44,517 bases of DNA from Escherichia phage vB_EcoM_SHAK7858. The stretch is from sequence record OR594183. One strand, 5' to 3'. Below, in pieces: positions 4,645-36,818 of the stretch (position 1 is the first letter of the stretch; each line of letters opens with the position of its first letter). The notes beneath the pieces were generated by a model. It was not told the DNA's origin. It worked only from the letters and a program-made list of their open reading frames with translations, and did no database searches. The position numbers and the translations under genes are program-made.

Positions 4645-4787
4645 TTGACTTTTCACTAAAAATGTGCTAAGCTCCACCTGAGCTTGTGAAGTATGAACAA
4701 GCGACCGCGGCGCGGGCAGGTAACGGAGCGGGACGTAAGTCCTGAGTGTAGTTACGCTGACGCGTTCGGAAGGGCCATACTCTATTG
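4645..4787 (+). promoter_or_regulatory. Conserved promoter-leader element, copy 1 (TTGACT-N17-TAAGCT plus about 115 nt of leader)
   Basis: About 80 percent identical by eye to 36228-36370, with a 51-nt perfectly identical core at 4660-4710; inverted repeat aagctc-cacct-gagctt at the -10/+1 region. Confidence 0.5.
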
Positions 4788-4853: not shown

Positions 4854-4880
4854 GCCCTGCTTTAAGGCAGGGCTTTACTT
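4854..4880 (+). terminator. Terminator-like hairpin in the leader upstream of the spanin genes
   Basis: gccctgc-tttaag-gcagggc followed by tttactt, about 190 nt downstream of the promoter at 4645. Confidence 0.4.
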
Positions 4881-10464: not shown

Positions 10465-10466
10465 AT

Positions 10467-14656: not shown

Positions 14657-14661
14657 ACGCG

Positions 14662-18750: not shown

Positions 18751-18753
18751 CTT

Positions 18754-22189: not shown

Positions 22190-22201
22190 AGAGGACTCTA
22201 T

Positions 22202-24226: not shown

Positions 24227-24364
24227 CTACTCTTCTGATAACTTCTCCAGTACAAACGCCAGTTGCGCATTAGCGGCGTCTCTTTGCTGACGTAGCCGCA
24301 GAACCTCTTCTTCGAGTTCCTTGATACGTTTTTGCAATGCCGGAATTGGGGCTATGATGTTCAT
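24227..24364 (-). CDS. Hypothetical small coiled-coil protein (45 aa)
   Basis: Uninterrupted frame with ATGA start/stop overlap with the upstream Toprim gene; Leu/Glu/Arg-rich heptad-like sequence. Confidence 0.35.
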   Translation of the reverse strand: MNIIAPIPALQKRIKELEEEVLRLRQQRDAANAQLAFVLEKLSEE

Positions 24365-24876
24365 CTGGTAAATTTCCTCGCAAGATACGTTATTTCTTCT
24401 TCACAAAGTTCATCAAGGTCGTTAGATACAAATCCTCTGGTGAATGTTTTGCTGAACTTTAATCCAGCTTTATCATTGTCGCCAGCGCACACCCAGTCAT
24501 ACGGCAAAAGTGACATTTGCTGCCGTAGGTCTGTTGATATATTTGACCCCAGTGCGCTTACAGCATTGAACCCGCAATTCATCAAGGCTACGGCTTTGAA
24601 TATGCTTTCGGTAACAAATACCACCCCGCTTCCCGGCAAATACTCAAGCCCCCATAAACACGGCCTTGTTGTTCTGGTAAAGTACCGCGCGTCTTTAGGG
24701 TTTTTACAGTTCTTTTCGGCATGTGGTTTGTAATGCTGGTATCCGCGAAGCCTACCGTCAAACCCCCACAGGTAAAACGTAGCTACTCCAGGGGCTAAGA
24801 CTACCTGGAGACGGTCAGCGTCAAACCCACGCGCCAGCAGATGAGCTTTAAGTAGAAACTCTTCGAAATCCATCAT
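24361..24876 (-). CDS. Toprim-domain protein
   Basis: Conserved Glu (VFVTES) and DxD (AGDNDKAG) arrangement typical of the Toprim fold. Confidence 0.5.
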   Translation of the reverse strand: MMDFEEFLLKAHLLARGFDADRLQVVLAPGVATFYLWGFDGRLRGYQHYKPHAEKNCKNPKDARYFTRTTRPCLWGLEYLPGSGVVFVTESIFKAVALMNCGFNAVSALGSNISTDLRQQMSLLPYDWVCAGDNDKAGLKFSKTFTRGFVSNDLDELCEEEITYLARKFTR

Positions 24877-26303
24877 TTCTTACCTCGTCTCTTCATGTAA
24901 TTAAGCAACTCTTCCTGTACCGATTTCTTCTCGTCGGTACGCGCGGCGACAACCTCGTCCAGAGTGTCTTTAGCAACGATGTGATAAAGGAACACCGGGC
25001 GCTCGTGACCCGCCTGTTTCTGGCGGACTGGGCCTATGCGCTCAACAACCTGCAAATAGTGCTCAAGGTTCCAGCCTTGCGAGATGAACGCCAGATGATG
25101 ACCCCCGTCCTGTAAATTCAAACCATGCCCGGCTGACGCAGGATGCACGCATAAAATCTCGATTTCCCCACGGTTCCACGCTTCCATCTGCTTGTTCCCC
25201 CTAGCGCCTTTGGCGAACGCCTGTGCCTGTGGGAATCGCTTAAGGATACGCTCCAGTTCGTGTTTAAACTGATAGGCTACCAGCAACGGCGCACCCTGCA
25301 ACTCCTCAACAATCGACTCGAGCGCATCCAGTTTCGTGTCGTGCACTTTCTCCCAGTCTTTGGTCGCTTCGCCATCCGGCCCTGACACATACACGGCACC
25401 AGATGCAATCTGCAAGCACTTTGAGGTCTTCGCCGCAGCGTTAGCCGCTTCAACTTCCCCGCTCTCCAGTTCTGCGAATAACTTCTCCTCCATATCTATG
25501 TACGCCTGACGCGCTTTCTTCGGCAGGTCTATTTCCACCGGTACGATAACAGGCGCTTCACAACCAAACCACTCGGCAGGGTCTATGGTCAGGCTGATGT
25601 CTTTCATCTTCTGATGAATCTCATTATCCGCACCCGGTCGTGCATGATACTCGCGGGCCATAGCCGATTTACCTTTCTGTACCGAGTTAAACCAGCGGTC
25701 TGTGAATGCCGTATACGAAGAGCCGAGGCGCTCGCCAGCGTCGATAAACCAGTTCTGACCCCACAAGTCTTTGAGGCCGTTTGGTGACGGTGTGCCCGTC
25801 AGGTTGATGAAACGCTTAACCTTTCCGAACGCGACCTTGCTGAGCGCCTTTGCCCGCTTGCTACCACCCGAACGGCTGCGGAACGATTTAAGCTTCGTGC
25901 TTTCATCGGCAACGATAACCGTAAAAGGCCAGTCGTCTTTGCCGTAGTAGTCAATTAGCCACTCGATAACTTCGTAGTTAGTGCACACCACGTTAGCATC
26001 TGACTCCAGCGCCGCGATGCGGCGCTTCTCCGAACCAGTTGCATCTACGACACGCAGACAAGGGAATTGCCATTTCTCTTGTTCAGCGGGCCACGTACCG
26101 GACGCAACACGTAACGGGGCAAGGATTAACACGCGGTCCTCTTCCGTAAGCTGCCCGTTGCGGAACAGGCGGTTGAGCACCCACATAGTGGAGGAGGTTT
26201 TACCTCCCCCCATTCCGCACCAGATATTACAGCGCGGGTGTTGCAGCATGAACGAAGTCATGAGCTTCTGGTACTCTCGACGGATAAATTTAGACATGTT
26301 CAA
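24873..26303 (-). CDS. SNF2-family DNA-dependent ATPase/helicase
   Basis: Walker A GMGGGKT, DExx-type box VIVADESTKLK, LTGTP motif. Confidence 0.8.
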   Translation of the reverse strand: MNMSKFIRREYQKLMTSFMLQHPRCNIWCGMGGGKTSSTMWVLNRLFRNGQLTEEDRVLILAPLRVASGTWPAEQEKWQFPCLRVVDATGSEKRRIAALESDANVVCTNYEVIEWLIDYYGKDDWPFTVIVADESTKLKSFRSRSGGSKRAKALSKVAFGKVKRFINLTGTPSPNGLKDLWGQNWFIDAGERLGSSYTAFTDRWFNSVQKGKSAMAREYHARPGADNEIHQKMKDISLTIDPAEWFGCEAPVIVPVEIDLPKKARQAYIDMEEKLFAELESGEVEAANAAAKTSKCLQIASGAVYVSGPDGEATKDWEKVHDTKLDALESIVEELQGAPLLVAYQFKHELERILKRFPQAQAFAKGARGNKQMEAWNRGEIEILCVHPASAGHGLNLQDGGHHLAFISQGWNLEHYLQVVERIGPVRQKQAGHERPVFLYHIVAKDTLDEVVAARTDEKKSVQEELLNYMKRRGKK

Positions 26304-26494
26304 TCCTTAACGTAGAGTACCAGCTCTTTACGCCCGAACGCGGTAACGTTGCCTGTTACATCTTCGATAACCAGTTTACCGTTCGACTCGACGAACACCG
26401 TATCAACGGCAACAGGGCGACGTGTCTTAACGTTGAAAATCATGTCGCCAGGTACGATGTCACGTGCTGGTTTACGGTCATATTCGTGTTTCAT
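26300..26494 (-). CDS. Hypothetical protein (64 aa)
   Basis: ORF with SD aagga, first gene after the promoter at 26528-26556. Confidence 0.45.
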   Translation of the reverse strand: MKHEYDRKPARDIVPGDMIFNVKTRRPVAVDTVFVESNGKLVIEDVTGNVTAFGRKELVLYVKD

Positions 26495-26524
26495 TTCTCA
26501 ATTCCTTATATTGTTGGTGTAAGG

Positions 26525-26809
26525 CTAACTATAATAGTTCGCTATTAGGTCGTCAACCTGTTTAAACGAACCAACGACAAAAACATTTGCACCGCGTTTA
26601 CGGAATCTTTCATGCTCGCGTAACTGGTGGGGGTCAGGCTTCGTGTTTTCGTCTTTCTTAATCTCGACGAACCAGATGATACCGCCGGGGAGAATTACCA
26701 GCAGGTCCATGGCGGCTCGCCGGCCTTCAAATGCCATCTTGCGAACGAGGCCGCCGATGGCCTCGAATTGCTCTTTTGCGTATTTCTGTATTTTGCCTTC
26801 CGGGGTCAT
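26525..26809 (-). CDS. VRR-NUC domain nuclease
   Basis: PD-(D/E)XK-like pattern D...EIK (DLLVILPGGIIWFVEIKK) in a 94 aa protein adjacent to an SNF2 helicase. Confidence 0.7.
   Translation of the reverse strand: MTPEGKIQKYAKEQFEAIGGLVRKMAFEGRRAAMDLLVILPGGIIWFVEIKKDENTKPDPHQLREHERFRKRGANVFVVGSFKQVDDLIANYYS
26528..26556 (-). promoter_or_regulatory. Sigma70-like promoter (TTGACG-N17-TATAGT) with embedded palindrome ATAATAG-N4-CTATTAG
   Basis: Read on the minus strand; overlaps the 3' end of the VRR-NUC coding region. Confidence 0.45.
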
Positions 26810-26958
26810 GAGCGCAGAACCCAGGTTATAAACGCTCCTCCGAGAACGGCAACGCCAACAAACTTAAAGAACAGGCCGTAACAGAACATCGCAGCTATTC
26901 CCGCGCCGAGTAACAGTGCGAGCATGGTTACTATGGTCCTAAATACAAACATTGTCAT
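26806..26958 (-). CDS. Hypothetical small membrane protein (50 aa)
   Basis: Uninterrupted frame, SD gaggggtg, ATGA coupling to the VRR-NUC gene, two hydrophobic segments. Confidence 0.35.
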   Translation of the reverse strand: MTMFVFRTIVTMLALLLGAGIAAMFCYGLFFKFVGVAVLGGAFITWVLRS

Positions 26959-27040
26959 AATACACACCCCTCACGTTTCGTATGCTCAATCCCGCAGCGC
27001 GGACAGATTCGGCAGTCTTCTTCGTATAACCAGTAAATTT

Positions 27041-27172
27041 TCATTCCAGCACCCACAGATAAATTGCTACTAACATACCCAATACGGCGACCATCATGCC
27101 GTATCGGCCCTCGTGACAGTAGACAACTGCGGCGAATCCCGCCAGTACCGCGATAATCAGTTTACTTAGCAT
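27041..27172 (-). CDS. Hypothetical small membrane protein (43 aa)
   Basis: Uninterrupted frame overlapping the 3' end of the polymerase gene; hydrophobic. Confidence 0.3.
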   Translation of the reverse strand: MLSKLIIAVLAGFAAVVYCHEGRYGMMVAVLGMLVAIYLWVLE

Positions 27173-29342
27173 AGCGCTTCATCTCCGCACCTTCCGCCAC
27201 AAGAGGGAACCCCTCCGCCCATTCCGGTAATTCACACATCAACCGCTCAAGCTCTGCAACATTGTATTCCGGTAAATCAGGTGTCTCGCAGATAATCTCA
27301 TCGTGTACATGAAGCACAATATGGTAGCCGTTTGCCTCTACGTTCAGCAGGGCGTTAGCCAGCAAATCACGGCACAGCGCCTGAGTACAGTTTTCCACCA
27401 GTTTACCAGAGTAGGTGTACTGGAAACCCCACTGCCTGGTTAACTGATTTTCACCCTGATACTTGATGCGCACGTTAGTAGAAACTTTTCCGTCTTCGTC
27501 TGTCTCTTTCGACACGCTCAACCCGACGCCCGGGTATGACATAACGCGACCTGACGGCAACGTCATGCGCAACCACCAACCAGCGACTTTGTTGCCGTTG
27601 TTGTCTGTTTCTACGTTGCGAGAAAACTTAACCCCGCGAGGGCCAGCGGTGAACTCTTTCCCCGGATTACGGATTGCTGCCATAGCTGCGTCTTCAATAT
27701 CACGCCAGAAAGCTACTGTTTCCGGGTGGGACTCCCGCCACATACGCTTAATTGCGTCGCATGTACGCCAGACTTTCTTATCAAGAATATATGATGGTCG
27801 GTCATCCTTTTCACCCGGACGCGGTGGTCGCTTGGCTTCCTGAATACGCGCCCACTCGTACCCGCGCGCGGTAGCGGCCCAGATGTGGTCAGGGAAAGTA
27901 CCGTCCATTGTTTTAGCCATATCAACCAGGTCAAGGCCGAGGTTTTTAGCGAACTGAACGAAAGCACCGACACCGCCCGCGTATCCGAGGCCCAATTCGC
28001 AGGCTTTACCAATCTGGCGTAAGTCTTTACGTTCTTTCTTAATGTAATCCGGCTCCATGCCGAACATCTTACCTGCTGTTACGCAGTAAATATCCAGTCC
28101 GGCGCGGAACGTATCTAGCGCGGTTTCTTCGCCCGCCAGCCACGCAAGACCGCGGCCTTCGACGTTAGAGTAATCGGCGATGACAAACTTATGTCCGGCT
28201 TCCGGGATAATGCAGCTACGAACGGTCGACGCCGTCAGCTTGGCTACGTCAAATCGGCGGTGCGCCCGGCCCTTAAGTAACGCTGAAATGCCTTTATCCA
28301 GTTCATCATCGTGATAGTACCCACGCGCCAGGTTCTGTGGCTGGAAGCCTTTACCCGCGAACCGTAACGTACGCTTTGCCCCACCGTACTGGATACAACC
28401 GCGGCGTCGGTCGTCCGACGAGCGGCCTAACAGCAGCGGGTTATATTTCGTGGACGCTGTTGACGCGGCCCCGAGGCGCATTTCGATAATCATCCGGGCG
28501 TCGTCCGGTAAATCATCATCTGCCAACAGGTCGTTAAGCGTCGACTTCTGTGCATTGTGTATGCGGTGCGCGGGCGCAAGTTCACGCAGAATCGGAAGGA
28601 AGTCTTTACCGGTAAGCGAGCCGCCGTATTTACGTTGAGCTTCTTCCTGTAACTGTGCCTTGTGCTTCTCTACGGCTTCAATCGCGGCTTCCGCCAGTGC
28701 GACGTCAACCTTAAATCCGCGGTCGTTGATTAACTGGTCAAGTTCCAGTACACGGTCTTCGAACTCGGAGTTACCCCAACGCGGCAGCTTATGGAAGACT
28801 TCACGCATCGCAGTGATGTCGCTCACGGCGTACCTGATGAACATCGCCCACTCGTCAGGGTGAGTTTCTGCGGTGTAGCGGCGGATTTTGTAGTTCTTCG
28901 GCGTCGGTTTAGAGAAACGCTTAATCAGAGCCTTGCCGCGTTTATCTTTCGCGTTGTCTGCAGACACGCCCAGCACTTCGCACAGCGCATCAAGAGAACC
29001 CGGCAGCGCGTGACGGAACGCCCAAATCATAGTATCAATGGTGTTACTTACCGGAATATCAAAGTCCCAGCAGTGTTTCATGATTAGGCGATCGAAAAGT
29101 CCACCGTTGTGCCACACCATCTTGATGCGGCTGTTGGGCTTAACAAGGCGGCGCAGTGCGCGGTGTAAATCCCCCGGCATGTCGCTGCCGTCGGTGCAAT
29201 CCCATACCCGCACAGGTTCGTCGTCAAAAGCATATGTACAGATAAGCACTTCGGTTGACGGGTGTTCGGCGTAAGCGTAAGAACCGACTTTCTTCAAATC
29301 GGCTTCTGAGAATGTTTCAAAGTCTAAGAACAGGTAACTCAT
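27162..29342 (-). CDS. Family A DNA polymerase with N-terminal 3'-5' exonuclease domain
   Basis: Exo I FLDFETFS; polymerase motif A DYSNVEGR, motif B K..ELGLGYAGG, motif C HVHDEI. Confidence 0.9.
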   Translation of the reverse strand: MSYLFLDFETFSEADLKKVGSYAYAEHPSTEVLICTYAFDDEPVRVWDCTDGSDMPGDLHRALRRLVKPNSRIKMVWHNGGLFDRLIMKHCWDFDIPVSNTIDTMIWAFRHALPGSLDALCEVLGVSADNAKDKRGKALIKRFSKPTPKNYKIRRYTAETHPDEWAMFIRYAVSDITAMREVFHKLPRWGNSEFEDRVLELDQLINDRGFKVDVALAEAAIEAVEKHKAQLQEEAQRKYGGSLTGKDFLPILRELAPAHRIHNAQKSTLNDLLADDDLPDDARMIIEMRLGAASTASTKYNPLLLGRSSDDRRRGCIQYGGAKRTLRFAGKGFQPQNLARGYYHDDELDKGISALLKGRAHRRFDVAKLTASTVRSCIIPEAGHKFVIADYSNVEGRGLAWLAGEETALDTFRAGLDIYCVTAGKMFGMEPDYIKKERKDLRQIGKACELGLGYAGGVGAFVQFAKNLGLDLVDMAKTMDGTFPDHIWAATARGYEWARIQEAKRPPRPGEKDDRPSYILDKKVWRTCDAIKRMWRESHPETVAFWRDIEDAAMAAIRNPGKEFTAGPRGVKFSRNVETDNNGNKVAGWWLRMTLPSGRVMSYPGVGLSVSKETDEDGKVSTNVRIKYQGENQLTRQWGFQYTYSGKLVENCTQALCRDLLANALLNVEANGYHIVLHVHDEIICETPDLPEYNVAELERLMCELPEWAEGFPLVAEGAEMKRYAK

Positions 29343-29357
29343 TATTTTTGACCCCTA

Positions 29358-29388
29358 GTAAAAAGGCCCAATGAAGGGCCTTAGTTAA
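29358..29388 (-). terminator. Hairpin plus T-run on the minus strand between the SSB-like and polymerase genes
   Basis: aggccc-aatgaa-gggcct with A-run upstream on the + strand. Confidence 0.45.
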
Positions 29389-29401
29389 ATTGATTCAGAT
29401 A

Positions 29402-30028
29402 TTAGCGGCGGCGACGTTCGCGGCGCGGTGCTTCGTCTTCTTCGTCGTCTTCCAGGTCATTGACGCTCGCAGCGACTTTAGAACCGCCGAACGCTTTGCC
29501 TTCGCCAACGTATTTAATCGCCAGCAGGTTAACGCCGAGGACTTTGTATTTCTGGCTGAACCAGATTTCAACGCTTACGTTAGCTAAGCATCCGCTGTAA
29601 ACCTGTTCACCTTCAATCTGTTCACCGTCTACATTGAAGTCCTGTTCTACCTGAGTCTCACCTTTTTTAGAGGTTACAATCAGCGGCTGCTTCTGTGCCT
29701 TCGCTTTGAAGTAGAAGCCTTCCGGGAAGTCTTCAAACGGATTGTCACGCTCGGCAATGTCTTTAATCGCACATTTATCCATGTGCTTACCTTCGCCGTA
29801 GTTGGACTTCATCCACTTCTCGGCGGCGGCTGCACCTAACGCTTCTTCAACTACAGCGTAAACGGTGTCGTAGAGCGCGTCGATTTGCGCGTGGTCGGAC
29901 GGCAGGATAATAGTCGCGCTGTACTGACCTTTAGTGATTGAACCATCATCATTTTCACGGTCTTTTTCGCGTTCGAATACGTTAACCCATGCAGTGTTTA
30001 CTTTACGCAGATTCAGTTTAATGCCCAT
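29402..30028 (-). CDS. SSB-like protein (DUF2815-like) with acidic C-terminal tail
   Basis: C-terminal DLEDDEEDE tail, position beside the polymerase and Cas4-like nuclease. Confidence 0.5.
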   Translation of the reverse strand: MGIKLNLRKVNTAWVNVFEREKDRENDDGSITKGQYSATIILPSDHAQIDALYDTVYAVVEEALGAAAAEKWMKSNYGEGKHMDKCAIKDIAERDNPFEDFPEGFYFKAKAQKQPLIVTSKKGETQVEQDFNVDGEQIEGEQVYSGCLANVSVEIWFSQKYKVLGVNLLAIKYVGEGKAFGGSKVAASVNDLEDDEEDEAPRRERRRR

Positions 30029-30082
30029 CGTGATTTCTCGCTTTTAAGTTTACTCCGGGAAGCTGCCCGGCCAGTGATTAGA

Positions 30083-30111
30083 ACTATAATAGCTAACTAT
30101 TCATGTGTCAA
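30083..30111 (-). promoter_or_regulatory. Sigma70-like promoter (TTGACA-N17-TATAGT) with embedded palindrome ATAATAG-N4-CTATTCA
   Basis: Read on the minus strand, upstream of the SSB-like gene; palindrome at 30086-30103. Confidence 0.45.
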
Positions 30112-30330
30112 ATAAAATTTTGCAATAGGGATTATGTTCTCGAAATTAAGCATATCGGCCGGTTCGAACTCATCTTCTACAGGGTCGTATCGCATCATGG
30201 TACCGTTCAAGAACGTGAACGATTCCGAGTGTAGATACCCATCCCAGCGCCATACCATCAAAAAATCTTTATCAGTCGGCATTTCATTTACTTGAATAAT
30301 TCTAAATCCTCCTCTGTAACCTGATTCCAC
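30097..30330 (-). CDS. Hypothetical protein (77 aa)
   Basis: ORF overlapping the Cas4-like nuclease gene end. Confidence 0.4.
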   Translation of the reverse strand: MESGYRGGFRIIQVNEMPTDKDFLMVWRWDGYLHSESFTFLNGTMMRYDPVEDEFEPADMLNFENIIPIAKFYLTHE

Positions 30331-31538
30331 TCAGGACGTTTGTCATCTGCCGTTGCGACACATGGTGCGCCTGGCTTACGTGTAATGAAGTCTTTCAGTC
30401 CATCTTCAGGCACAACTTTAACCGCTTCGGTTGGCGTCATGAGCACTTGCTTCATTAGCGCTATGCCATACTTGCCAGCCACTTTCTCCGCGTCTTTCCA
30501 CACGCGATTACCCTGACGACCTTCAACCAGCTTGTACCCAGGCACTTTCTTACCGGAATGCAAAGCGGCAGCCATAGCTTTCTCAACCTTATCGATGTGC
30601 TGGCGCAGCAACGGCAACTTCTCATACTCAGCTACGAGTTGTTCAGGCGTCAGTTCCAGCGCAAAGTCGTCCTCCAGTTCTTCCGCCAGTACAGAATTAA
30701 CCGTCTTTGTACGCGCGGCGCACTGTTCAGAGAACCGACACCACTGACAACCATCGACCGACGGCTTGAAGTCCGACGCTTTCAGGTTCTTCTTGCCACG
30801 GGAATAGGCATCTAACGCTAACAGCGCACGTTTCTGCGCGAACTTAGCGAACAGTTCCAGACCTTCAACCGAGATGTCCCACTCCGACGCGCCCCCGGCG
30901 TACGGCTGGAAGATGACCAGGCGCACTACTGAGATGTTATAGCGTCTCTTGAGTCGACGATAAACACCGAGAGCGTAAAGCATAAGCTGCTTGTTTTCTT
31001 TCGCTTCGACGCGATGCCGCCCTGTTTTCAGGTCGCCGATAATGAGCATGTGCTCGTCGGTGTTTGCCAGTTCCTGGACAGCAACGAGGTCAGCGGTTCC
31101 GAACGTCTCAACGCCTTCATACCCCGGATGCAATACCTCAGTAAGATTGACCCGCATTTCCAGCTTAGCGTAAGCCGCTACGTCGATAATCGCTTTGCAG
31201 TAGTCGGTGTACTTGCGCACCTGCTCAATCATGTCCGCCGTAATCAGTACAGCACCTTTCATCGGGCTGATTAGCGCCTTAATCTGGCCTTTACCCTCGT
31301 CCAGCACGTAAGCGCCAACTTCACGCTCTAACGGCAGTGCAGTTCCGCGGATATAGGCGTTGAGATGGACCTCCGCTATGGTGTGGCACGCTGTACCTGT
31401 AACGGCGGCTTTACCTGACGTGTTGGGAATATCTTTCTCACAGGCCAGCGATGCGGCGCAGCTTAGCCACTTTTTAGCCCCTGACGGCGACAGCAGGGCG
31501 TGCACATCGTTATTGCCGCCGCGTTCTTTTAAAATCAT
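30288..31538 (-). CDS. PD-(D/E)XK nuclease with Cys cluster (Cas4-like / DUF2800-like)
   Basis: GTADLV...IIGDLKTG nuclease core plus CQWCRFSEQC cluster. Start taken at the ATG with SD gggagg; ORF track extends to 31553. Confidence 0.7.
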   Translation of the reverse strand: MILKERGGNNDVHALLSPSGAKKWLSCAASLACEKDIPNTSGKAAVTGTACHTIAEVHLNAYIRGTALPLEREVGAYVLDEGKGQIKALISPMKGAVLITADMIEQVRKYTDYCKAIIDVAAYAKLEMRVNLTEVLHPGYEGVETFGTADLVAVQELANTDEHMLIIGDLKTGRHRVEAKENKQLMLYALGVYRRLKRRYNISVVRLVIFQPYAGGASEWDISVEGLELFAKFAQKRALLALDAYSRGKKNLKASDFKPSVDGCQWCRFSEQCAARTKTVNSVLAEELEDDFALELTPEQLVAEYEKLPLLRQHIDKVEKAMAAALHSGKKVPGYKLVEGRQGNRVWKDAEKVAGKYGIALMKQVLMTPTEAVKVVPEDGLKDFITRKPGAPCVATADDKRPEWNQVTEEDLELFK

Positions 31539-31807
31539 ACCCTGACCTCCCACTGGTCAATTAAATGTCGTGTCTTGTGGTCACAATGCATCGCCCAGCT
31601 ATACATCGACTCGAAGACATAAAAGTCAGGCTTGGCGAAAGTTGTGCGCTTAATCTGTGACACGTGACGGCCTATGTCTTTAGGCCGTGGTACTTTTCCT
31701 AAGTACGCCATCTCTTCCATCTGGTGCGCACCGGACGGAGCACGCAATAGCCATAGCGCCTCTGTGTTATCACGCCTGTCGACGGCTCGGTAGAGTTGGT
31801 AAATCAT
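31535..31807 (-). CDS. Hypothetical protein (90 aa)
   Basis: ORF translationally coupled (ATGA) to the nuclease gene. Confidence 0.45.
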   Translation of the reverse strand: MIYQLYRAVDRRDNTEALWLLRAPSGAHQMEEMAYLGKVPRPKDIGRHVSQIKRTTFAKPDFYVFESMYSWAMHCDHKTRHLIDQWEVRV

Positions 31808-31850
31808 AATTCCGACCCTCAGTTAAAGCGGCCCGAAGGCCGCGAGATAG

Positions 31851-32369
31851 TTATTCTTCTTCGAAATACTTGTTCTTGATTGCTGTCAGGCGTTCCAGGT
31901 ACTCAACCAGGTCTTCGTCTTTAATCGCGGCAATCTTCATCTTCTTACCTGTGAACTCTTCCAGCAGTTCATCAGAATCATCGCACGCGGCATCGCTAGG
32001 ACCTTCATTAATTGCATCGTCGATGGCCTGAATCTGGTCACGCAGAGACTTGTAATCGACTTCTTCTTTCTCTTCTTCCGGTTCTGGCGCAGGTTCCTCT
32101 ACTTTAGCTTTACGCGGCTTGCGTTTTGGCTTCTCTTCCTCCGCCGGTTTAGTGTCAACTACGTCTTCACCCTCGACCGGGATTTCTTTTGTTTCTTCTT
32201 TTACAACAGTAGGCGTGATTGTTGCAGTTTCTGCGACACCACTGTCGACGTCTTTACCATATGGCGCCGTGATAGCCTTCGGCAGTTCAGTACGGCGTGC
32301 ACTGTTCGCAGCAATCAGTTCATGCGCAACTACGAAACGTTCCAGTAATACTAAGAATTTCTCTAACAT
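31851..32369 (-). CDS. Hypothetical acidic protein (172 aa) with a basic KPKRKPRKAK patch
   Basis: Glu/Asp-rich ORF, second gene of the leftward operon. Confidence 0.5.
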   Translation of the reverse strand: MLEKFLVLLERFVVAHELIAANSARRTELPKAITAPYGKDVDSGVAETATITPTVVKEETKEIPVEGEDVVDTKPAEEEKPKRKPRKAKVEEPAPEPEEEKEEVDYKSLRDQIQAIDDAINEGPSDAACDDSDELLEEFTGKKMKIAAIKDEDLVEYLERLTAIKNKYFEEE

Positions 32370-32393
32370 TATTTATTCTCCTGTTTATTTGGG

Positions 32394-32621
32394 TTACTCG
32401 CCGTCGCCTTCTGTAAGGCTATCGTCTATTAATTCAAATTTACCGTTTGGGTGTTGAATAGCTTCTTGCCCGCAATGGTCGCAGACAACAAGTTTATCGA
32501 ACCCATCAAACTCGTCCCCGACTACGCAAGAAAGTACAAATTTATGTTTTGTGCACACTTCCTGCGATTCTCCGAAAATTGCTAGAAAACCTTTAGCTAT
32601 GGCTCCCGTTATTGTGTTCAT
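32394..32621 (-). CDS. Small zinc-ribbon-like protein (75 aa)
   Basis: Cys pairs CTKHK...C and CDHCG; first gene after the promoter at 32650-32678. Confidence 0.45.
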   Translation of the reverse strand: MNTITGAIAKGFLAIFGESQEVCTKHKFVLSCVVGDEFDGFDKLVVCDHCGQEAIQHPNGKFELIDDSLTEGDGE

Positions 32622-32649
32622 ATCCGCCCCTCTCGTTTGGTATGGGCTA

Positions 32650-32678
32650 ACTATAATAGCGAACTATTCACATGTCAA
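32650..32678 (-). promoter_or_regulatory. Leftward promoter (TTGACA-N17-TATAGT) with embedded palindrome ATAATAG-N4-CTATTCA
   Basis: Read on the minus strand; palindrome at 32653-32670; part of the divergent control region next to the HTH gene. Confidence 0.5.
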
Positions 32679-32696
32679 TGGGCTTTTCTAAAATAA

Positions 32697-32714
32697 TTAA
32701 TATGGTACTATTCA
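32697..32714 (+). promoter_or_regulatory. Second, degenerate palindrome copy (TTAATAT-N4-CTATTCA) overlapping a TACTAT -10 for the HTH gene
   Basis: Lies about 40 bp from the first site and about 30 bp upstream of the HTH start codon; SD aaggag follows. Confidence 0.4.
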
Positions 32715-32742
32715 CATATCAACTGACTAAGGAGTAATTGAC

Positions 32743-32958
32743 ATGCAACCATCTGAACTAGGTATCCGTGTAGAACAACGCCGTAAAGAACTCGGCATCT
32801 CCCAGCGCCGTTTGGCGGCCCTGACCGGCGTTTCCCAGGGCGCGATTAACCAACTGGCACTTGGAGTAACTCAGGACGTCCGCCCGGCAACGCTGTTCAA
32901 ACTGGCGGAAGTTCTGGAAGTAGACGCCAAGTGGCTGGCGTTAGGTGAAGGGGCTTAA
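32743..32958 (+). CDS. Cro/CI-type (XRE-family) helix-turn-helix DNA-binding protein
   Basis: Classic HTH LGISQRRLAALTGVSQGAINQL; strong SD; terminator downstream. Confidence 0.85.
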   Translation: MQPSELGIRVEQRRKELGISQRRLAALTGVSQGAINQLALGVTQDVRPATLFKLAEVLEVDAKWLALGEGA

Positions 32959-32975
32959 AGCCCCTTTCTTTTTAT
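32949..32975. terminator. Rho-independent terminator after the HTH gene
   Basis: aggggc-ttaa-gcccct followed by ttctttttat. Confidence 0.6.
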
Positions 32976-33286
32976 AGCAACTTATCGAGTTCTTCCAAAT
33001 TCTTAATAGTGTGTTGCACGTTCAGGTACTGAATCCAGGCGAGAAACCACGCACTTACAGGAAAACTTATAACAATAGTTATCGATATAATTAATTTGAA
33101 AAGGCACTTTATAATCTCTGCCAGCGTCATGTCTAAAATGTCTTTAAACTCCGCAAAAATCCCCGCTGCATACACACAAAAAGTCCACCAGTTGTTGCTT
33201 ACAGCGGAAACACATGTCAGGTATGACGGGCGGTATCCTGCCTTCACTGCTTTAAACGGGTTATCTATAAAATCGTAAATATTCAT
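32972..33286 (-). CDS. Hypothetical membrane protein (104 aa), AT-rich
   Basis: Hydrophobic helices; noticeably lower GC than flanking genes. Confidence 0.45.
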   Translation of the reverse strand: MNIYDFIDNPFKAVKAGYRPSYLTCVSAVSNNWWTFCVYAAGIFAEFKDILDMTLAEIIKCLFKLIISITIVISFPVSAWFLAWIQYLNVQHTIKNLEELDKLL

Positions 33287-35535
33287 TCCAAATCCTCCTC
33301 GGTCACTGTCAGCATTTCATTCGGTTCGTATATTGTCTTCGGAATCTTGTTATCTGTTATCATGGTGTTCAGTCTGTAACGGCCTGGGATTATCTGATTG
33401 TTTTCGTCAGTACCCGGAACAAGATACCCAGCCTCAACCATTTTCTTAATCTTCCCGCGTTCTATGGCTTCTTTGGAGTTAAACGCCTTTGCGTTGGGGT
33501 CAGACTGCGCGAGCTTATTCGCTGCGGATACCGTGATGCCCTCGTTGCCGTTGTAGGTCCCCTCCGCCAGTTCAAACGCCGCGAGTATCGTGGCCTCGGA
33601 ACTGTTGACGGCGTTCTCTATGGTTTTACGTACATTTTGTTTACCTTCGTTAGTTAACCCTTCTTCCCTCTCTTTCTCCTCGTCGGTCTTGAATGGCTCG
33701 AAGCCCCACGGCATCAATACAAGCGCCTTGTGCGGCTCAGGCAGGTCGAGGTTTACTATTGTGCCGTATTCCTCTGTGCTACCGAGGAACTCAACCGCGC
33801 GGTACTCTTTCGGCGGCGGTGCTTCACGGAACTGTACAGACTCCAGTACCATGCCAACCGTCTTCTGTTGCGGACCGTGCTTAAATTTAGAGTGGTATAC
33901 GTTTATCTGACGGTCGGTAGCGCGTTCGATTGTCAGTTCCACGTCGACACCCGCATACAATGCTCCACTGCCGCGGGCTTTCTTTCCGCCCTTCGGAGTA
34001 TGGTGAACGACACCGACAGCGGCTTTAGTTGCATCGCGCACTTCTTTCAGGATGGCGATAACTTTACCCATACCGATTGCCGTTGATGAACTGTTCTCGT
34101 CGAACTTATCAATCGTCAGGGCCAGCGTCTGGTTAAGGGTGTCGAAGGCAACCATGCCAATAGGTTCATCCCCTGCGGTTTCGCGCATCCTGCGGATTAG
34201 AGCTGGAATTTTTTTATCACCATGCGTAGCGAGTATTTCGCCCATATCGATGACATGTACATAATCTTTACCTTCCTCGCCATATTTAGCCGCGAGTGCA
34301 TCAATACGTGTTCGTGTAGCTGCACCACCCTCGCCGTCAATATAGAAATGGTGGCAACGTTGGGTGTCAGCCCCCGCAAACCGGTACCCGGCGGCGCTCA
34401 GGTACATCATCCCCAGCGTATAGAATGATTTGTACGTGCCGGATTCCCCGACAATATCCCAGATACAATCCGACGGCATGTACCCCTCAACGACGAAATC
34501 AGCCTTTACCGGTTCTGGTAACTCGTCCTCTTCTTCAAGGTCTTCCAGCGTGCAAGTTACAGGCTCCTCGTTCTCTGTGCGGTGCAGTTCTTCAATCTCT
34601 TCATCCGGTAAATCAGGCAGAGCCGCACGAATGCTGTTAATACTGATAGGTTGCTTGTCTACGTTAAGCTCGTCCGGCAGGCCGCACATACGCAGGGCCA
34701 AATGCTGTCGGCGGTTAAGCTCGGTGCAAGCGCCGTTGTTTGTATGCTGGCACACAAAGCGCACTTCTTTACCATCAAGCATGATGCTTGTGGAGCCTTT
34801 GCCTGTATGCAGATGTTCGTTAGGGCATGGGACTTCGTACCCGCGCCCGGAAGATAAAGCGTCAAGGCCAAGCTCGGCTTCGCAGAAATGCGCTATATCA
34901 GCATTAAGCCCATACTCATCGGCGGCAAGTGTCTTAACTTCACGTTTACTCAACCCCATCTCTTCGGCTTTCTTGATGTACCGCTCGGCACGGATAACAC
35001 GCCCTTCTGTAACCGTTATCTTTGACTCTCTATGTGGCAGATAGATAAGGCGGTTGCCGTCTTCCGTGCAGTGGTCACGCAAGGCTTCATCTATTTCTAA
35101 CTCTGCACAAATAGCCCGTTGGACCATCCACGCGTCGTTAGAGTTAAACGGCGTGCGAGCCGGAACCAGAACGCGGAAGGCGTAATCACCGTTTTTACAC
35201 ACATGCTGATGCGATGCCGTTGTATGCAGAATATTGAAGAACGGTGCGTTCTTGAATTTGCGGGTAAGGTCGCGGTACTGAGTACGGTTGAGATGGTCAA
35301 AATCGAACTTAACCACACTGTCTTCCAGGATAGCGTTTTTACGGCGACCCCCAACAGGCGCAATAGCTTTCTGCTTAATCTTGGCAGCGTCGTACTCTTC
35401 CTTAGACCACGACGGATCCACGGATAAACGCTTCGATGTATCGCAGACATACTCCACAAACTGCTCGAGCGGCATCTCACGCGCTACAGGGTTTTTATCG
35501 AATGTGTTGCGCAGCGTTGCAAAAACAATATTCAT
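33283..35535 (-). CDS. DNA primase / RecA-like replicative ATPase fusion
   Basis: N-terminal primase-like region with a Cys/His zinc-binding segment; C-terminal Walker A GESGTYKS, Walker B MVAFDTL and VVHHTPKGG. Confidence 0.75.
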   Translation of the reverse strand: MNIVFATLRNTFDKNPVAREMPLEQFVEYVCDTSKRLSVDPSWSKEEYDAAKIKQKAIAPVGGRRKNAILEDSVVKFDFDHLNRTQYRDLTRKFKNAPFFNILHTTASHQHVCKNGDYAFRVLVPARTPFNSNDAWMVQRAICAELEIDEALRDHCTEDGNRLIYLPHRESKITVTEGRVIRAERYIKKAEEMGLSKREVKTLAADEYGLNADIAHFCEAELGLDALSSGRGYEVPCPNEHLHTGKGSTSIMLDGKEVRFVCQHTNNGACTELNRRQHLALRMCGLPDELNVDKQPISINSIRAALPDLPDEEIEELHRTENEEPVTCTLEDLEEEDELPEPVKADFVVEGYMPSDCIWDIVGESGTYKSFYTLGMMYLSAAGYRFAGADTQRCHHFYIDGEGGAATRTRIDALAAKYGEEGKDYVHVIDMGEILATHGDKKIPALIRRMRETAGDEPIGMVAFDTLNQTLALTIDKFDENSSSTAIGMGKVIAILKEVRDATKAAVGVVHHTPKGGKKARGSGALYAGVDVELTIERATDRQINVYHSKFKHGPQQKTVGMVLESVQFREAPPPKEYRAVEFLGSTEEYGTIVNLDLPEPHKALVLMPWGFEPFKTDEEKEREEGLTNEGKQNVRKTIENAVNSSEATILAAFELAEGTYNGNEGITVSAANKLAQSDPNAKAFNSKEAIERGKIKKMVEAGYLVPGTDENNQIIPGRYRLNTMITDNKIPKTIYEPNEMLTVTEEDLE

Positions 35536-35660
35536 TTCTTTTTCTCCGCACGTTCTAAGGCTTCCTGCATACGGCGCATTGCGCGGTTCATCTTTACCGG
35601 TGCGAAGAAGTCAGCGCCGTGTTTCTGGCGGCGTAGCTGTGGAACTATTAACTTTGTCAT
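35532..35660 (-). CDS. Hypothetical small basic protein (42 aa)
   Basis: Uninterrupted frame with SD aagga and stop/start overlap with the primase gene. Confidence 0.3.
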   Translation of the reverse strand: MTKLIVPQLRRQKHGADFFAPVKMNRAMRRMQEALERAEKKK

Positions 35661-35728
35661 TGTATAATCCTTATGCTTACTTTGATGATTTGTACTTTAG
35701 CCCCGACGTTCTGGCGTTGGGGTTTCTT

Positions 35729-35941
35729 TTACTTAACGCCCGCAATCCACGCACGCTCCGAAGCGTAGAAACGACACTTACTTAAAGCCTCGATTGGCAT
35801 CTTAATAATGCGTGTCGGTTCCAACAAATGATTAGGCTTACATATTTCCGCATAGAATCCGCTGTCAGTAATTTCCGACGCAAACTTAAACCAGTATTTA
35901 ACTTTACAGTTTTCAAAGTAACAACCCATACGCCCAATCAT
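35729..35941 (-). CDS. Hypothetical protein (70 aa)
   Basis: ORF translationally coupled to the upstream HTH gene. Confidence 0.4.
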   Translation of the reverse strand: MIGRMGCYFENCKVKYWFKFASEITDSGFYAEICKPNHLLEPTRIIKMPIEALSKCRFYASERAWIAGVK

Positions 35942-36120
35942 TTCACGTTCTCCTTAATCCATGCTTCAACTTTATTACGGTCAAATGTTCCTGGTAAACG
36001 GCGACCCATAACCTTAATACAGCAATCAGGGAATTTACCGCTGCGCAACCAGTTATTAATTGTTTGACGTGTCACCCCGATACGTTCAGCCACTTCATTC
36101 TGTGTCATGTAATGCTGCAT
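35938..36120 (-). CDS. Small HTH DNA-binding protein (AlpA/excisionase-like fold)
   Basis: MTQNEVAERIGVTRQTINNWLRSGKFP; start taken at the ATG with SD aggagat. Confidence 0.55.
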   Translation of the reverse strand: MQHYMTQNEVAERIGVTRQTINNWLRSGKFPDCCIKVMGRRLPGTFDRNKVEAWIKENVK

Positions 36121-36151
36121 TTTTATATCTCCTGTTTGTTTGGTGAAAACG

Positions 36152-36180
36152 AGTATAGGATAGCGTGAATGTAAAAGCAA
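36152..36180 (-). promoter_or_regulatory. Leftward promoter (TTGCTT-N17-TATACT) for the replication-side operon
   Basis: Read on the minus strand; followed by an aaacaggag leader before the HTH gene. Confidence 0.4.
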
Positions 36181-36227
36181 CCAAAACACCACACAAAGTT
36201 ACTAATATACAAAAGATGCTAATGGTA

Positions 36228-36370
36228 TTGACTTTTACTAAGAAATGTGCTAAGCTCCACCTGAGCTTGTGAAGTATGAACAAGCGACCGCGGTGCGGCA
36301 GGAAACGGAGCGGTGCGTCAGCACTGAGTGTAGTGTCGCTGCCTGCATTCGGAAGGGCCATAATCTATTG
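36228..36370 (+). promoter_or_regulatory. Conserved promoter-leader element, copy 2 (TTGACT-N17-TAAGCT plus leader)
   Basis: Same length as copy 1 at 4645-4787, identical 51-nt core at 36243-36293, diverged centre retaining the 10-mer ctgagtgtag. Confidence 0.5.
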
Positions 36371-36457
36371 TAAATCCCGTCTAAATAACCCAAGTCACTA
36401 ATAATTAAAAGTTTCTATAGTTGCCGTAAGCAAGGTAGAGAGTACTTCACTCCGCTG

Positions 36458-36477
36458 GGGTGGGCTAAAGCCCACCC
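36458..36477 (+). other. GC-rich hairpin in the leader downstream of promoter-leader copy 2
   Basis: gggtgggc-taaa-gcccaccc, not followed by a clear T-run. Confidence 0.3.
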
Positions 36478-36536
36478 GCTGCGTTGCGTACTCTTTAAAG
36501 AAACAAAAGAATCACAACGGCAACGTAACTAATCTC

Positions 36537-36565
36537 TTGCACACCCCAACATAATAGGATACTAT
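36537..36565 (+). promoter_or_regulatory. Sigma70-like promoter (TTGCAC-N17-TACTAT) with embedded palindrome ATAATAG-N4-CTATTCA
   Basis: Palindrome at 36551-36568; about 35 nt upstream of the ATG at 36600. Confidence 0.45.
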
Positions 36566-36599
36566 TCACTTATCGAAACGAGACATAAGGAATTTAGAA

Positions 36600-36818
36600 A
36601 TGAACAAAGCGACCGCAAGCGTAGTTTCCGCAATCAAAGAAGTTTACGGCATCGATATCTCAGAGCGCGTAATTATCGGGAACAAGCGCAACTTCTTTAC
36701 GTTCGACACCGACGGAATGGATGAAAATGATTTTGTTAACGTACAACGTTTCGCTAACGGTAAAGGACTTCGTAACGAGCCAGCGGGTTACAAGAAATTT
36801 GCTATCTACTTTAAATAA
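36600..36818 (+). CDS. Hypothetical protein (72 aa)
   Basis: ORF with SD and upstream promoter. Confidence 0.5.
   Translation: MNKATASVVSAIKEVYGIDISERVIIGNKRNFFTFDTDGMDENDFVNVQRFANGKGLRNEPAGYKKFAIYFK

What the first reader, a model, noticed from the sequence alone, without database searches (positions are those of the whole stretch)
36228..36477. Duplicated promoter-leader element, copy 2, in the divergent control region between the replication block and the rightward genes
Second copy of the element described at 4645-4787. It sits in a 480-bp non-coding region (36121-36599) that also contains a leftward promoter (36152-36180), a GC-rich hairpin (36458-36477) and a palindrome-bearing rightward promoter (36537-36565). 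Two tandem rightward promoters of different classes in front of the same gene block suggest temporally distinct transcription, one of them shared with the spanin/head operon.
Basis: partly seen in the sequence, partly recalled or inferred. Interest (0 to 1): 0.7.

Follow-up and report, generated by a model that had tools for sequence, protein, structure and literature searches.

The report
Duplicated structured leader RNA in phage
In front of two late-gene blocks of this E. coli phage sits a strong promoter followed by a ~107-base RNA that folds into two evolutionarily conserved hairpins; this RNA has not been described before and most likely helps RNA polymerase read through the stop signals downstream, though that role is untested.

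Summary
The element is more than a duplicated promoter. Behind an extended -10 sigma-70 promoter (TTGACT-17-TGnTAAGCT) lies a ~107-nt RNA starting at about +1. It has a 5' hairpin P1, a 1-2 nt linker, a long irregular hairpin P2, and an invariant single-stranded tail (GGAAGGGCC..UCUAUUG). Across Kagunavirus and Jerseyvirus versions, 16 of 29 base pairs show compensatory changes and 94% of cells pair (28-40% in slid controls). Four of the pairs that differ between the window's own two copies are fully compensated. It is not a gene: the overlapping ORF is broken or lacks a start in many variants. It matches no Rfam family, is absent from E. coli genomes and is not in the literature searched. Each copy is followed by a GC-rich hairpin and heads a block of late genes containing further terminators. 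My best reading (confidence 0.4) is a promoter-proximal, cis-acting antitermination leader analogous to HK022 put, but not homologous to it. An mRNA stabiliser, a stand-alone sRNA and a protein-loaded (Q/AlpA-like) site remain open.

The parts
36228..36256 (+). Copy 2 promoter. -35 TTGACT (36228-36233), 17-nt spacer, TG (36248-36249), -10 TAAGCT (36251-36256). This is an extended -10 sigma-70 type.
   Evidence: Read from the sequence. The pattern occurs exactly twice in the window, 0.00 expected. Across relatives the TG is kept while the n of TGn varies C/G/A. The same site was predicted as 'host promoter 1' in phage fBC-Eco01.
36263..36369 (+). Copy 2 structured leader RNA, covering model positions 1-107. 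P1 is 36265-36270 paired with 36280-36285, with a 9-nt loop. The linker is GA (36286-36287). P2 is 36288-36352, with its apical hairpin P2c at 36311-36326. The conserved single-stranded tail AAGGGCCAUAAUCUAUU(G) is 36353-36370.
   Evidence: The covariance model scores it 116.3 bits. The minimum-free-energy fold gives the same two hairpins. Covariation: 16 of 29 pairs have compensatory changes and 94.3% of cells pair.
36262..36267 (+). TGAGCT, an echo of the -10 hexamer at about -1..+5. It could be a sigma-dependent pause element.
   Evidence: Read from the sequence. In the Jersey lineage both the -10 and the echo are TACGCT, so the two covary. Whether it causes pausing is inference only.
36371..36457 (+). 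A/U- and C-rich spacer between the RNA element and the GC hairpin. It contains UUGCCGUA (36423-36430), a motif found in all leader types.
36458..36477 (+). GC-rich hairpin GGGUGGGC-UAAA-GCCCACCC with no U-tract. It sits at the position where the other leader versions have their hairpin or terminator.
   Evidence: It was not called terminator-like. Other lineages have a different hairpin at the same place.
36537..36565 (+). Second rightward promoter, of the other class: TTGCAC-17-TACTAT with the palindromic operator AATAGGATACTATT (36553-36566).
36152..36180 (-). Leftward promoter-like site TTGCTT-17-TATACT, in front of the HTH_17 regulator gene (35938-36120).
   Evidence: It is conserved in Bas70.
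4645..4673 (+). Copy 1 promoter. -35 TTGACT (4645-4650), TG (4665-4666), -10 TAAGCT (4668-4673).
4680..4786 (+). Copy 1 structured leader RNA (P1, P2 and tail).
   Evidence: The covariance model scores it 133.6 bits. Fold.
4854..4873 (+). Terminator-like hairpin GCCCUGC-UUUAA-GGCAGGGC followed by UUUACUUAUC. It lies 11 nt upstream of the ribosome-binding site of the spanin gene (4898-5284).
   Evidence: Called terminator-like. The stem covaries between genomes: GCCCUGC/GGCAGGGC versus GCCCCGC/GGCGGGGC.

Best explanation
The element is a transcription cassette for late genes. A strong extended -10 host-type promoter starts transcription at about 36263 (4680 in copy 1). The first ~107 nt of the transcript fold into a 5'-terminal hairpin (P1), a 1-2 nt linker, a long irregular hairpin (P2) and a conserved single-stranded tail. 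I propose that this nascent RNA acts in cis on the RNA polymerase that made it, alone (as HK022 put does) or with a host or phage factor (as a nut site does). The effect would be that the polymerase ignores the GC-rich hairpin or terminator 70-100 nt downstream and the further terminators inside the long late blocks. Shown here: the promoter motifs, the RNA structure and its covariation, its non-coding nature, its position, and the downstream hairpins and terminators. Inferred: the transcription start, the action on polymerase, and read-through.
For: 1. The structure is under selection. On the structure-blind MAFFT alignment, 93.6% of cells pair against 29-41% when the partners are slid, and the covariation score beats 500 of 500 shuffles. 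On the alignment of Kaguna-type and Jersey-type versions, 16 of 29 pairs carry compensatory changes in all three helices. Within the window, 4 of the 6 base pairs that differ between the two copies are changed on both sides and still pair.
2. The junction and tail (ACCGCGG .. UUCGGAAGGGCC .. UAUUG) stay invariant while helix sequences and the P2c loop are free to vary (GUAA, GUCA, GUUA, CUCG, CACA and others). This points to recognition of a folded platform rather than of a loop.
3. The RNA begins at the predicted +1. The promoter hexamers and the TG are conserved, and the n of TGn varies.
4. Every version is followed by a GC-rich hairpin. Its sequence differs by lineage, its position is kept, and its stem covaries.
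5. Strong rightward terminator-like sites lie inside the downstream blocks. After copy 1 they are at 4854, 7245 and 11638. After copy 2 they are at 37828, then 2723 and 4290 around the circular map.
6. Those blocks hold late genes. Copy 1 heads spanin, scaffold, capsid and tail genes. Copy 2 heads holin, endolysin, terminase and portal.
7. The architecture parallels HK022 put as described in PMC9378689: two adjacent irregular stem-loops starting at the 5' end of the transcript, with two diverged copies per genome.
Against: 1. The covariance models find nothing in HK022, so there is no homology to put. The parallel is architectural only.
2. The copy 2 hairpin lacks a U-tract and is not terminator-like. 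The Jersey-type hairpin is followed by UUAGCGU. So a terminator right after the leader is clear only for Kaguna-type copy 1.
3. An RNA-only antiterminator would give no temporal control over late genes.
4. Most relatives have only one copy, and the copy 2 slot can hold an unrelated cassette. The tail-gene block has a different leader. So the element is not needed by every late block.
5. The weak -10-like motif in the P1 loop, which in putL may aid folding, is not conserved here.
6. No transcript data exist at this resolution. The one Kagunavirus RNA-seq paper is gene-level only.
Confidence: 0.4

Rival explanations
1. The element is a 5'-UTR stabiliser or processing element. A hairpin at the extreme 5' end, plus a second large hairpin, would protect the long late mRNAs from 5'-end-dependent decay (RppH/RNase E), as the ompA 5' UTR does. 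The downstream GC hairpin would mark a processing or protection point in front of the first gene.
For: P1 begins within 2-3 nt of the predicted 5' end in both lineages, although its sequence differs. Helix sequences are free to vary as long as they pair. The copy 2 slot can hold a quite different hairpin cassette of the same design, which suits a generic structural role. The downstream hairpins are poor terminators in several lineages. The ompA comparison rests on my own knowledge.
Against: A generic stabiliser does not explain why the junction and the single-stranded tail (ACCGCGG, UUCGGAAGGGCC, UAUUG) are invariant across genera while neighbouring genes diverge by 10-15%. It also does not explain why P2 keeps its particular pattern of bulges and G-U pairs.
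Confidence: 0.25
2. The element is a stand-alone small RNA gene. Transcription from the extended -10 promoter would end at the downstream hairpin, giving an RNA of about 195-215 nt that acts in trans on host or phage targets or binds a protein.
For: The unit has its own promoter, a structured body and a hairpin. Copy 1 has a terminator-like end at 4854-4873 followed by UUUACUU, which would give an RNA of about 200 nt. Different cassettes occupy the same slot in different genomes, as accessory sRNA genes often do. A conserved single-stranded stretch could serve as a seed.
Against: Copy 2 has no U-tract after its hairpin, so transcripts should run on. In the copy 1 slot of the phages examined, the element sits directly before the first gene of a block that has no other evident promoter: the spanin ribosome-binding site is 11 nt after the hairpin. 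The conserved tail is purine-rich and resembles a ribosome-binding site, so it is not an anti-ribosome-binding-site seed.
Confidence: 0.15
3. The element is a DNA-level loading site for a protein antiterminator of the lambda Q or Pseudomonas AlpA type. RNAP would pause at a -10-like element just after the start, a phage protein bound at the promoter would load onto it, and the complex would then ignore terminators. The RNA structure would be secondary.
For: A hexamer echoing the -10 lies at about -1..+5 and covaries with it: TAAGCT/TGAGCT in Kaguna and TACGCT/TACGCT in Jersey. PalpB has its pause element at the same position (PMC9371919). The layout of promoter, ~200-nt leader, terminator, then lysis and morphogenesis genes mirrors lambda PR'-6S-tR' (own knowledge). 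P1 is invariant within Kagunavirus. An HTH_17 'AlpA/excisionase-like' gene lies next to copy 2.
Against: It does not explain the compensatory changes in P1, P2 and P2c. The Kaguna echo has G where the essential A of a -10 element should be. The promoter spacer, where a Q- or AlpA-binding element would lie, is not conserved between lineages. The HTH protein is only 60 aa and shows only generic HTH similarity to solved structures, whereas AlpA residues up to 142 are described and its N-terminal part forms the exit-channel ring. No antiterminator is annotated in Bas70.
Confidence: 0.1
4. The region encodes a small protein: the ORF at 36276-36401, annotated as a hypothetical CDS in some relatives.
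For: An ATG-initiated ORF of 41 codons exists in the window. Relatives carry 'hypothetical protein' annotations over the element, namely fBCEco01_09 and Bas70_0007.
Against: The distance between the conserved flanks is 79, 80, 81 or 82 nt in different genomes. The reading frame contains stops in 7 variants, and the ATG is absent in L022, L064 and all Jersey-type versions, which nevertheless keep the RNA structure. There is no good ribosome-binding site.
Confidence: 0.01

Closest known systems
HK022 put RNAs (putL, putR): cis-acting, factor-independent processive antiterminator RNAs
   Same: Both lie promoter-proximal and start at or near +1. Both consist of two adjacent irregular stem-loops separated by 1-2 nt. 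Both occur as two diverged copies per genome, each heading a long operon with terminators. In both, the conserved part lies at the junction of the stems. (PMC9378689; this work.)
   Different: There is no detectable sequence or structure homology: models R1 and R2 find nothing in HK022. This element is longer (about 94 nt of helices plus an 18-nt conserved tail, against about 72 nt). It sits in virulent Guernseyvirinae phages rather than a temperate lambdoid phage, and in front of late rather than early genes. Most relatives carry one copy only. Its function is untested.
Lambda nut sites with N protein (boxA + boxB)
   Same: Both are RNA elements in the leaders of two operons that would make RNAP resistant to terminators. 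A boxA-like CUCUUUAA lies after the copy 2 hairpin, at 36491-36498.
   Different: There is no boxB-like hairpin with a conserved loop: the P2c loop varies freely. The boxA-like string is not found in copy 1. No arginine-rich N-like protein was identified.
Lambda PR'-6S RNA-tR' with Q, and Pseudomonas PalpB-tB with AlpA
   Same: All share the layout of a constitutive-looking promoter, a leader of about 200 nt, a hairpin or terminator, and then lysis and morphogenesis genes. All have a -10-like hexamer at about -1..+5.
   Different: Those systems work through DNA sites and a protein that forms a nozzle on RNAP, and their leaders show no conserved RNA structure. Here the RNA structure covaries and no Q- or AlpA-like protein is evident.
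ompA-type 5'-UTR stabilisers (own knowledge)
   Same: Both have a 5'-terminal hairpin followed by a second hairpin in a long leader.
   Different: Stabilisers tolerate sequence change. Here the junction and tail are invariant across genera.
Rfam families (4,227 models)
   Same: None.
   Different: No match at the gathering threshold, and nothing meaningful up to E = 10. Rfam also fails to detect the genuine putL in HK022, so it holds no put model.

Membership tests
HK022 put antiterminator RNA | Sequence and secondary-structure homology to putL/putR | tested here: not met
   Covariance model R1, run with filters off on the HK022 loci holding the immunity region and the putL located there (L046, L047), gave no hit up to E = 10.
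HK022 put antiterminator RNA | Two adjacent stem-loops with bulges and internal loops, located just downstream of a promoter | tested here: met
   P1, a 1-2 nt linker and an irregular P2, starting at the predicted +1. The transcription start is inferred from the promoter, not mapped.
HK022 put antiterminator RNA | Two diverged copies per genome, heading separate operons | tested here: met
   Met in this window. Only about 42 of 180 related records have a second place.
HK022 put antiterminator RNA | Read-through of terminators without protein factors, dependent on the RNAP beta-prime zinc-binding domain | not testable with these tools
   This needs in vitro transcription or rpoC mutants.
Q / AlpA-type promoter-loaded antitermination | A -10-like pause element in the initially transcribed region | tested here: inconclusive
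   The echo is TGAGCT at 36262-36267, with G at the position of the essential A. In the Jersey lineage it is an exact TACGCT. The echo covaries with the -10.
Q / AlpA-type promoter-loaded antitermination | A Q- or AlpA-like protein encoded by the phage | tested here: not met
   The adjacent HTH_17 protein is 60 aa and shows only generic HTH similarity. No antiterminator is annotated in Bas70. Not every small protein was examined.
Q / AlpA-type promoter-loaded antitermination | A conserved protein-binding DNA element between -35 and -10 | tested here: inconclusive
   The spacer is similar between the two window copies, but it is not conserved between the Kaguna and Jersey lineages.
Lambda nut site | A boxB hairpin with a conserved loop, plus boxA | tested here: not met
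   The apical loop varies: GUAA, GUCA, GUUA, GUUAA, CUCG, UGUAG, CACA, CGCA. A boxA-like string is present only after copy 2.
Intrinsic terminator (for the hairpin downstream of the element) | A GC-rich stem-loop immediately followed by a U-tract | tested here: inconclusive
   Copy 1 (4854-4873 plus UUUACUUAUC) is called terminator-like. Copy 2 (36458-36477) has no U-tract and is not called.
Protein-coding gene | A conserved open reading frame with a start codon | tested here: not met
   Frameshifting length variants of 79-82 nt, in-frame stops, and a missing ATG in many variants.
Any Rfam family | A score at or above the gathering threshold | tested here: not met

The most novel reading that the evidence does not exclude
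The element is a new, put-unrelated class of nascent-RNA antiterminator. It would bind E. coli/Salmonella RNA polymerase on its own and make it terminator-resistant. This would be the first such RNA in virulent phages, used for late rather than early genes.
Probability: 0.2. Interest if true: 0.8.

Novelty: new variant of a known kind. Interest (0 to 1): 0.6.

Why it matters
Kagunavirus and Jerseyvirus phages are among the most often isolated E. coli and Salmonella phages, and they are used in therapy and biocontrol. Their gene regulation is essentially unstudied. This element is a well-supported, previously unrecognised structured RNA at the head of their late genes, and several genome records annotate it as a hypothetical protein.

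If it acts on RNA polymerase, it would be a second, independent solution to RNA-mediated antitermination after HK022 put. That would make it possible to ask which features of an RNA are sufficient to reprogram the elongation complex. It would also be a compact part for synthetic biology: a promoter plus a terminator-proof leader.

If it turns out to be a stabiliser or an sRNA, it still corrects annotations and defines the late promoter class of the subfamily.

Tried and rejected
- **Rfam.** Searched at the gathering threshold and at E <= 10. Nothing was found. Rfam also has no put model, so this says nothing about put.
- **Direct homology to put.** Rejected by covariance-model search of HK022.
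- **Small-protein reading.** Rejected.
- **Sigma-pause motif in the P1 loop.** AAGTAT matches the NANNAT pattern seen in putL, but it is not conserved in L064 or in the Jersey type.
- **Alternative pairing in copy 1.** The copy 1 minimum-free-energy fold pairs the 5' end with the tail. This pairing is not supported in copy 2 or by the variation at CAUAnU.
- **HTH_17 neighbour as an AlpA-like antiterminator.** It is too small and shows only generic similarity.
- **Tail pairing with the downstream hairpin (anti-terminator switch).** By inspection, no consistent complementarity was found across lineages. This was not computed formally.
- **K-turn or loop-E reading of the P2 internal loop (GGAG / AGUGUA).** The sequences do not fit the consensus as I know it, and the Jersey type has a different loop.
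- **Remote members in phages with scaffold identity of 80% or less.** There was no significant model hit. Only the core motif is visible by eye.
- **Occurrence in E. coli genomes.** None was found.
- **Literature.** Searches on Kagunavirus, Jerseyvirus, put-like RNAs and int-alpA found no prior description.
- **Not run.** The metagenome and bacterial-genome collection scans were skipped, because the short conserved core would give many chance matches.

Full report
**What the window is.** The sequence is a Kagunavirus-like virulent siphophage of E. coli, subfamily Guernseyvirinae. Over the region studied, the best match among deposited phage records is phage Bas70. The map reads as follows:
- terminase, portal, head morphogenesis and a Hoc-like protein (1-4286)
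- a small leftward gene
- a rightward block of spanin, scaffold, capsid, connector and tail tube (4898-11633)
- a short leftward block
- a rightward tail block (14240-24187)
- a leftward replication block (24227-36120)
- a rightward block of small genes, holin and endolysin that runs on into terminase (36600 to the end of the window and on to position 1)

**Checking the observation.** The repeat is real. TTGACT-N17-TAAGCT occurs exactly twice, at 4645 and 36228, with none expected by chance. The similarity continues for about 143 nt.
- the 36121-36599 non-coding gap
- the leftward promoter-like site 36180->36152
- the GC hairpin 36458-36477
- the palindrome-bearing promoter 36537-36565

**What the element is.**
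- *Promoter.* The promoter is of the extended -10 type. TG is kept one base upstream of TAAGCT while the intervening base varies among relatives (C, G or A). This places +1 at about 36263 (4680 in copy 1).
- *RNA architecture.* From that point the sequence folds the same way in both copies. P1 is GCUUGU-9 nt-ACAAGC. A GA linker follows. P2 is a long irregular hairpin with a CCG/CGG base, G-U pairs, bulges, an internal loop GGAG/AGUGUA and an apical stem P2c. The single-stranded tail is AAGGGCCAUAnUCUAUUG.
- *Differences between the two window copies.* They differ at 15 aligned columns, 10 of them in paired columns. Eight of those ten make up four base pairs changed on both sides that still pair (CG->UA, UA->AU, GC->UA, AU->GC). 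One change is GC->GU, and only one breaks a pair.

**Comparative evidence.**
- *Distribution.* The element is detectable by blastn in 180 phage records from E. coli, Salmonella, Raoultella and Shigella phages.
- *Sampling.* I collected versions from IMG/VR contigs with two DNA patterns and by anchoring on the scaffold protein.
- *P2c variation.* P2c exists in at least six sequence versions that all pair: CGGGAC/GUCCUG, CGGUGC/GCACUG, CGGGGC/GCCCUG, CGGAC/GUCCG, CACGU/ACGUG and CACG/CGUG.
- *Structure-blind test.* On a MAFFT alignment of 21 distinct sequences, my explicit structure pairs 93.6% of cells, against 29-41% when the partners are slid. The covariation score exceeds 500 of 500 shuffles.
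- *Copy number.* A covariance model built from that alignment finds exactly two copies in the window (133.6 and 116.3 bits; next best 8 bits).
- *Jerseyvirus version.* The model recovers a diverged version in Jerseyvirus genomes at the same genomic position (35-40 bits). There the promoter is TAGACT-17-TGnTACGCT, P1 is a different hairpin (ACGCU-UUC-AGCGU), and the P2 interior and P2c are different. The ACCGCGG..CAUUCGGAAGGGCC..UAUAUUG core is kept.
- *Both lineages together.* With 26 distinct sequences, 16 of 29 pairs carry compensatory changes, including three in P1. 94.3% of cells pair, against 28-40% in slid controls. That alignment is fitted to the model and so leans towards the structure, but the structure-blind result agrees.
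- *Cornellvirus.* Cornellvirus-type leaders have other hairpins and are not detected by the model. They still show the core CGGAAGGG(Y)C..UCUnUU by eye.

**It is not a gene.** The distance between the conserved flanks is 79, 80, 81 or 82 nt in different genomes. The ATG-initiated frame contains stops in seven variants. The ATG is absent in several Kaguna variants and in all Jersey-type versions. Even so, some genome records annotate a hypothetical protein over the element.

**Context.**
- *Downstream hairpin.* Each version is followed 70-100 nt later by a GC-rich hairpin. Its sequence differs by lineage and its position is kept.
  - Copy 1: GCCCYGC-UUUAA-GGCRGGGC followed by UUUACUU. It is terminator-like, and its stem covaries.
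  - Copy 2 in this window: no U-tract.
  - A second copy 2 type: GGUGCC-UUCG-GGCACC followed by a U-rich stretch.
  - Jersey type: GCCCGGC-UUAC-GCCGGGC.
- *Terminators in the blocks.* Strong rightward terminator-like sites lie inside the downstream blocks.
- *Copy 2 is a subset feature.* About 42 of 180 records have a second place. The closest relative, Bas70, lacks copy 2. In the same slot Bas70 has another cassette of the same design: TTGAAA-18-TGtTATAAT, a different long hairpin, a related tail, then the hairpin GGGCAGGC-UUAA-GCCUGCCC followed by UUUAGUU.
- *Specificity.* The element is absent from 5,426 complete E. coli genomes. The only plasmid-database hit is a 44-kb record that is evidently a Kagunavirus genome.

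**Two promoter classes.**
- *Class 1.* The other promoters carry the palindrome AATAG-N4-CTATT in or next to a -35/-10 promoter. There are eight copies against 0.04 expected. The leftward ones are near-consensus TTGACA-17-TATAGT. This is the motif that earlier authors called a 'phage promoter'.
- *Class 2.* These are extended -10 promoters followed by a structured leader: the two copies here, and TGcTAGAAT in front of the tail block.
- *Possible significance.* From my own knowledge, extended -10 promoters do not need the -35 contact. Several phages exploit this for their late genes, for example through T4 AsiA and Thermus phage P23-45 gp39.

**Mechanism.**
- *Best fit.* The combination that needs explaining is this: a nascent RNA starting at +1, two adjacent irregular hairpins, an invariant junction and tail, free helix and loop sequences, a hairpin or terminator downstream, long operons with internal terminators, and two diverged copies per genome. 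A cis-acting antitermination or antipausing leader of the HK022 put kind matches it best (PMC9378689).
- *Why analogy only.* The element is not homologous to put. It heads late rather than early genes. The copy 2 hairpin is not a canonical terminator. I therefore hold this as an analogy, with confidence 0.4.
- *Factor dependence is open.* Whether the RNA would act alone or with a factor is undecided. An RNA-only mechanism gives no timing, which argues for a factor or for regulation at the promoter. Just upstream of the copy 1 -35 there are GAATA-N3-TATTC and CTATTCGAATAG palindromes related to the operator half-sites. Copy 2 lacks them.
- *Possible pause site (inference only).* The invariant UAUUG lies 14-18 nt after P2. 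That is where the polymerase active site would be when P2 has just left the exit channel. It is comparable to the pause 21 nt after put stem II.
- *Rivals.* A 5'-UTR stabiliser (0.25), a stand-alone sRNA (0.15) and a Q/AlpA-type DNA loading site (0.1) each explain part of the data. They are separated by the experiments listed under next steps.

**Novelty.** There is no Rfam family and no mention in the searched literature. The only related statements are a predicted host promoter, a terminator and a hypothetical CDS in one genome paper. The element is a new structured RNA motif. By its most likely function it would be a new variant of a known kind, namely a promoter-proximal regulatory leader or antiterminator RNA.

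Noticed in passing
window 14139-14215: The tail-gene block (starting at 14240) is headed by an extended -10 promoter-like TGcTAGAAT (14139-14147). It is followed at once by a structured leader that matches Rfam int-alpA RNA (14151-14215), at 36.6 bits against a gathering score of 35.8. The match is borderline and is not found in Bas70, SS7 or Shemara. All three rightward late blocks in this window therefore start with an extended -10 promoter plus a structured leader.
   Followed up: partly
window 4549, 14103, 26533, 30088, 32655, 36553, 37801, 37959: The palindrome AATAG-N4-CTATT occurs 8 times against 0.04 expected. Most copies lie within or next to sigma-70 -35/-10 promoters, for example TTGACA-17-TATAGT leftward at 26556, 30111 and 32678. 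It is probably the operator of a phage regulator, perhaps the 60-aa HTH_17 protein encoded at 35938-36120. Earlier authors read it as a 'phage RNA polymerase promoter', although no phage RNA polymerase is annotated in the close relative Bas70.
   Followed up: partly
L052 (Bas70) 36230-36600, the slot equivalent to window 36185-36530: The closest relative has a different cassette in the copy 2 slot. It consists of the promoter TTGAAA-18-TGtTATAAT, the hairpin GUUGACGAACCCUCCCCGAGGGAUUCGUCAAC, the tail AAGGAUAAGUGUAUCUAAAUC and the terminator-like hairpin GGGCAGGC-UUAA-GCCUGCCC-UUUAGUU. Leader cassettes seem to be exchangeable modules. Cornellvirus Shemara has a similar promoter (TTGACACGTTTTTGTATAATG) in the copy 1 slot.
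   Followed up: partly
window 4682-4688 and 4787-4793; Jersey-type loci L077-L088: In the copy 1 slot, the sequence right after the tail repeats the start of the transcript, and the repeat differs by lineage. Kaguna has GCUUGUG twice and Jersey has GCUUUCAG twice. The repeat is absent from copy 2 and from L037 and L064. It is unexplained: it could be a remnant of duplication or a second start region.
   Followed up: partly
window 4626-4644: Directly upstream of the copy 1 -35 lie the palindromes GAATA-AAC-TATTC (4626-4638) and CTATTCGAATAG (4633-4644), built from the same half-sites as the operator. Similar palindromes precede the Jersey and Cornell versions (for example GGAATAAATTATTCC in L100). 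Copy 2 has none. This suggests that copy 1 is regulated at the promoter by a DNA-binding protein.
   Followed up: no
alignment A3 columns 31 and 91 (loci L041, L043, L064): In P2a, G->U on the 5' side co-occurs with U->C on the 3' side in three different versions. These two columns are not partners in my model: the change turns one G-U pair into G-C and the neighbouring G-U pair into U-U. This may indicate a register shift or a non-canonical contact.
   Followed up: no
window 36491-36498: CUCUUUAA, which matches the core of the rrn boxA (GCUCUUUAACAA, from my own knowledge), lies 14 nt after the copy 2 hairpin. It has no counterpart after copy 1 and may be chance.
   Followed up: no
window 36423-36430 and 36524-36530: UUGCCGU upstream of the copy 2 GC hairpin is complementary to ACGGCAA downstream of it. 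Both strings are kept in the other copy 2 slot cassettes. This could be a long-range helix enclosing the hairpin.
   Followed up: no
plasmid database record CP088689.1: A 44,086-bp 'plasmid' from a human blood E. coli isolate is evidently a Kagunavirus genome with both copies of the element. It is 99.3% identical to copy 2.
   Followed up: no
locus L033 2220-2327: One genome has a copy 1 slot element whose P2 interior is of the copy 2 type (GGUGC/GCAC version). This suggests recombination or gene conversion between the two copies.
   Followed up: no
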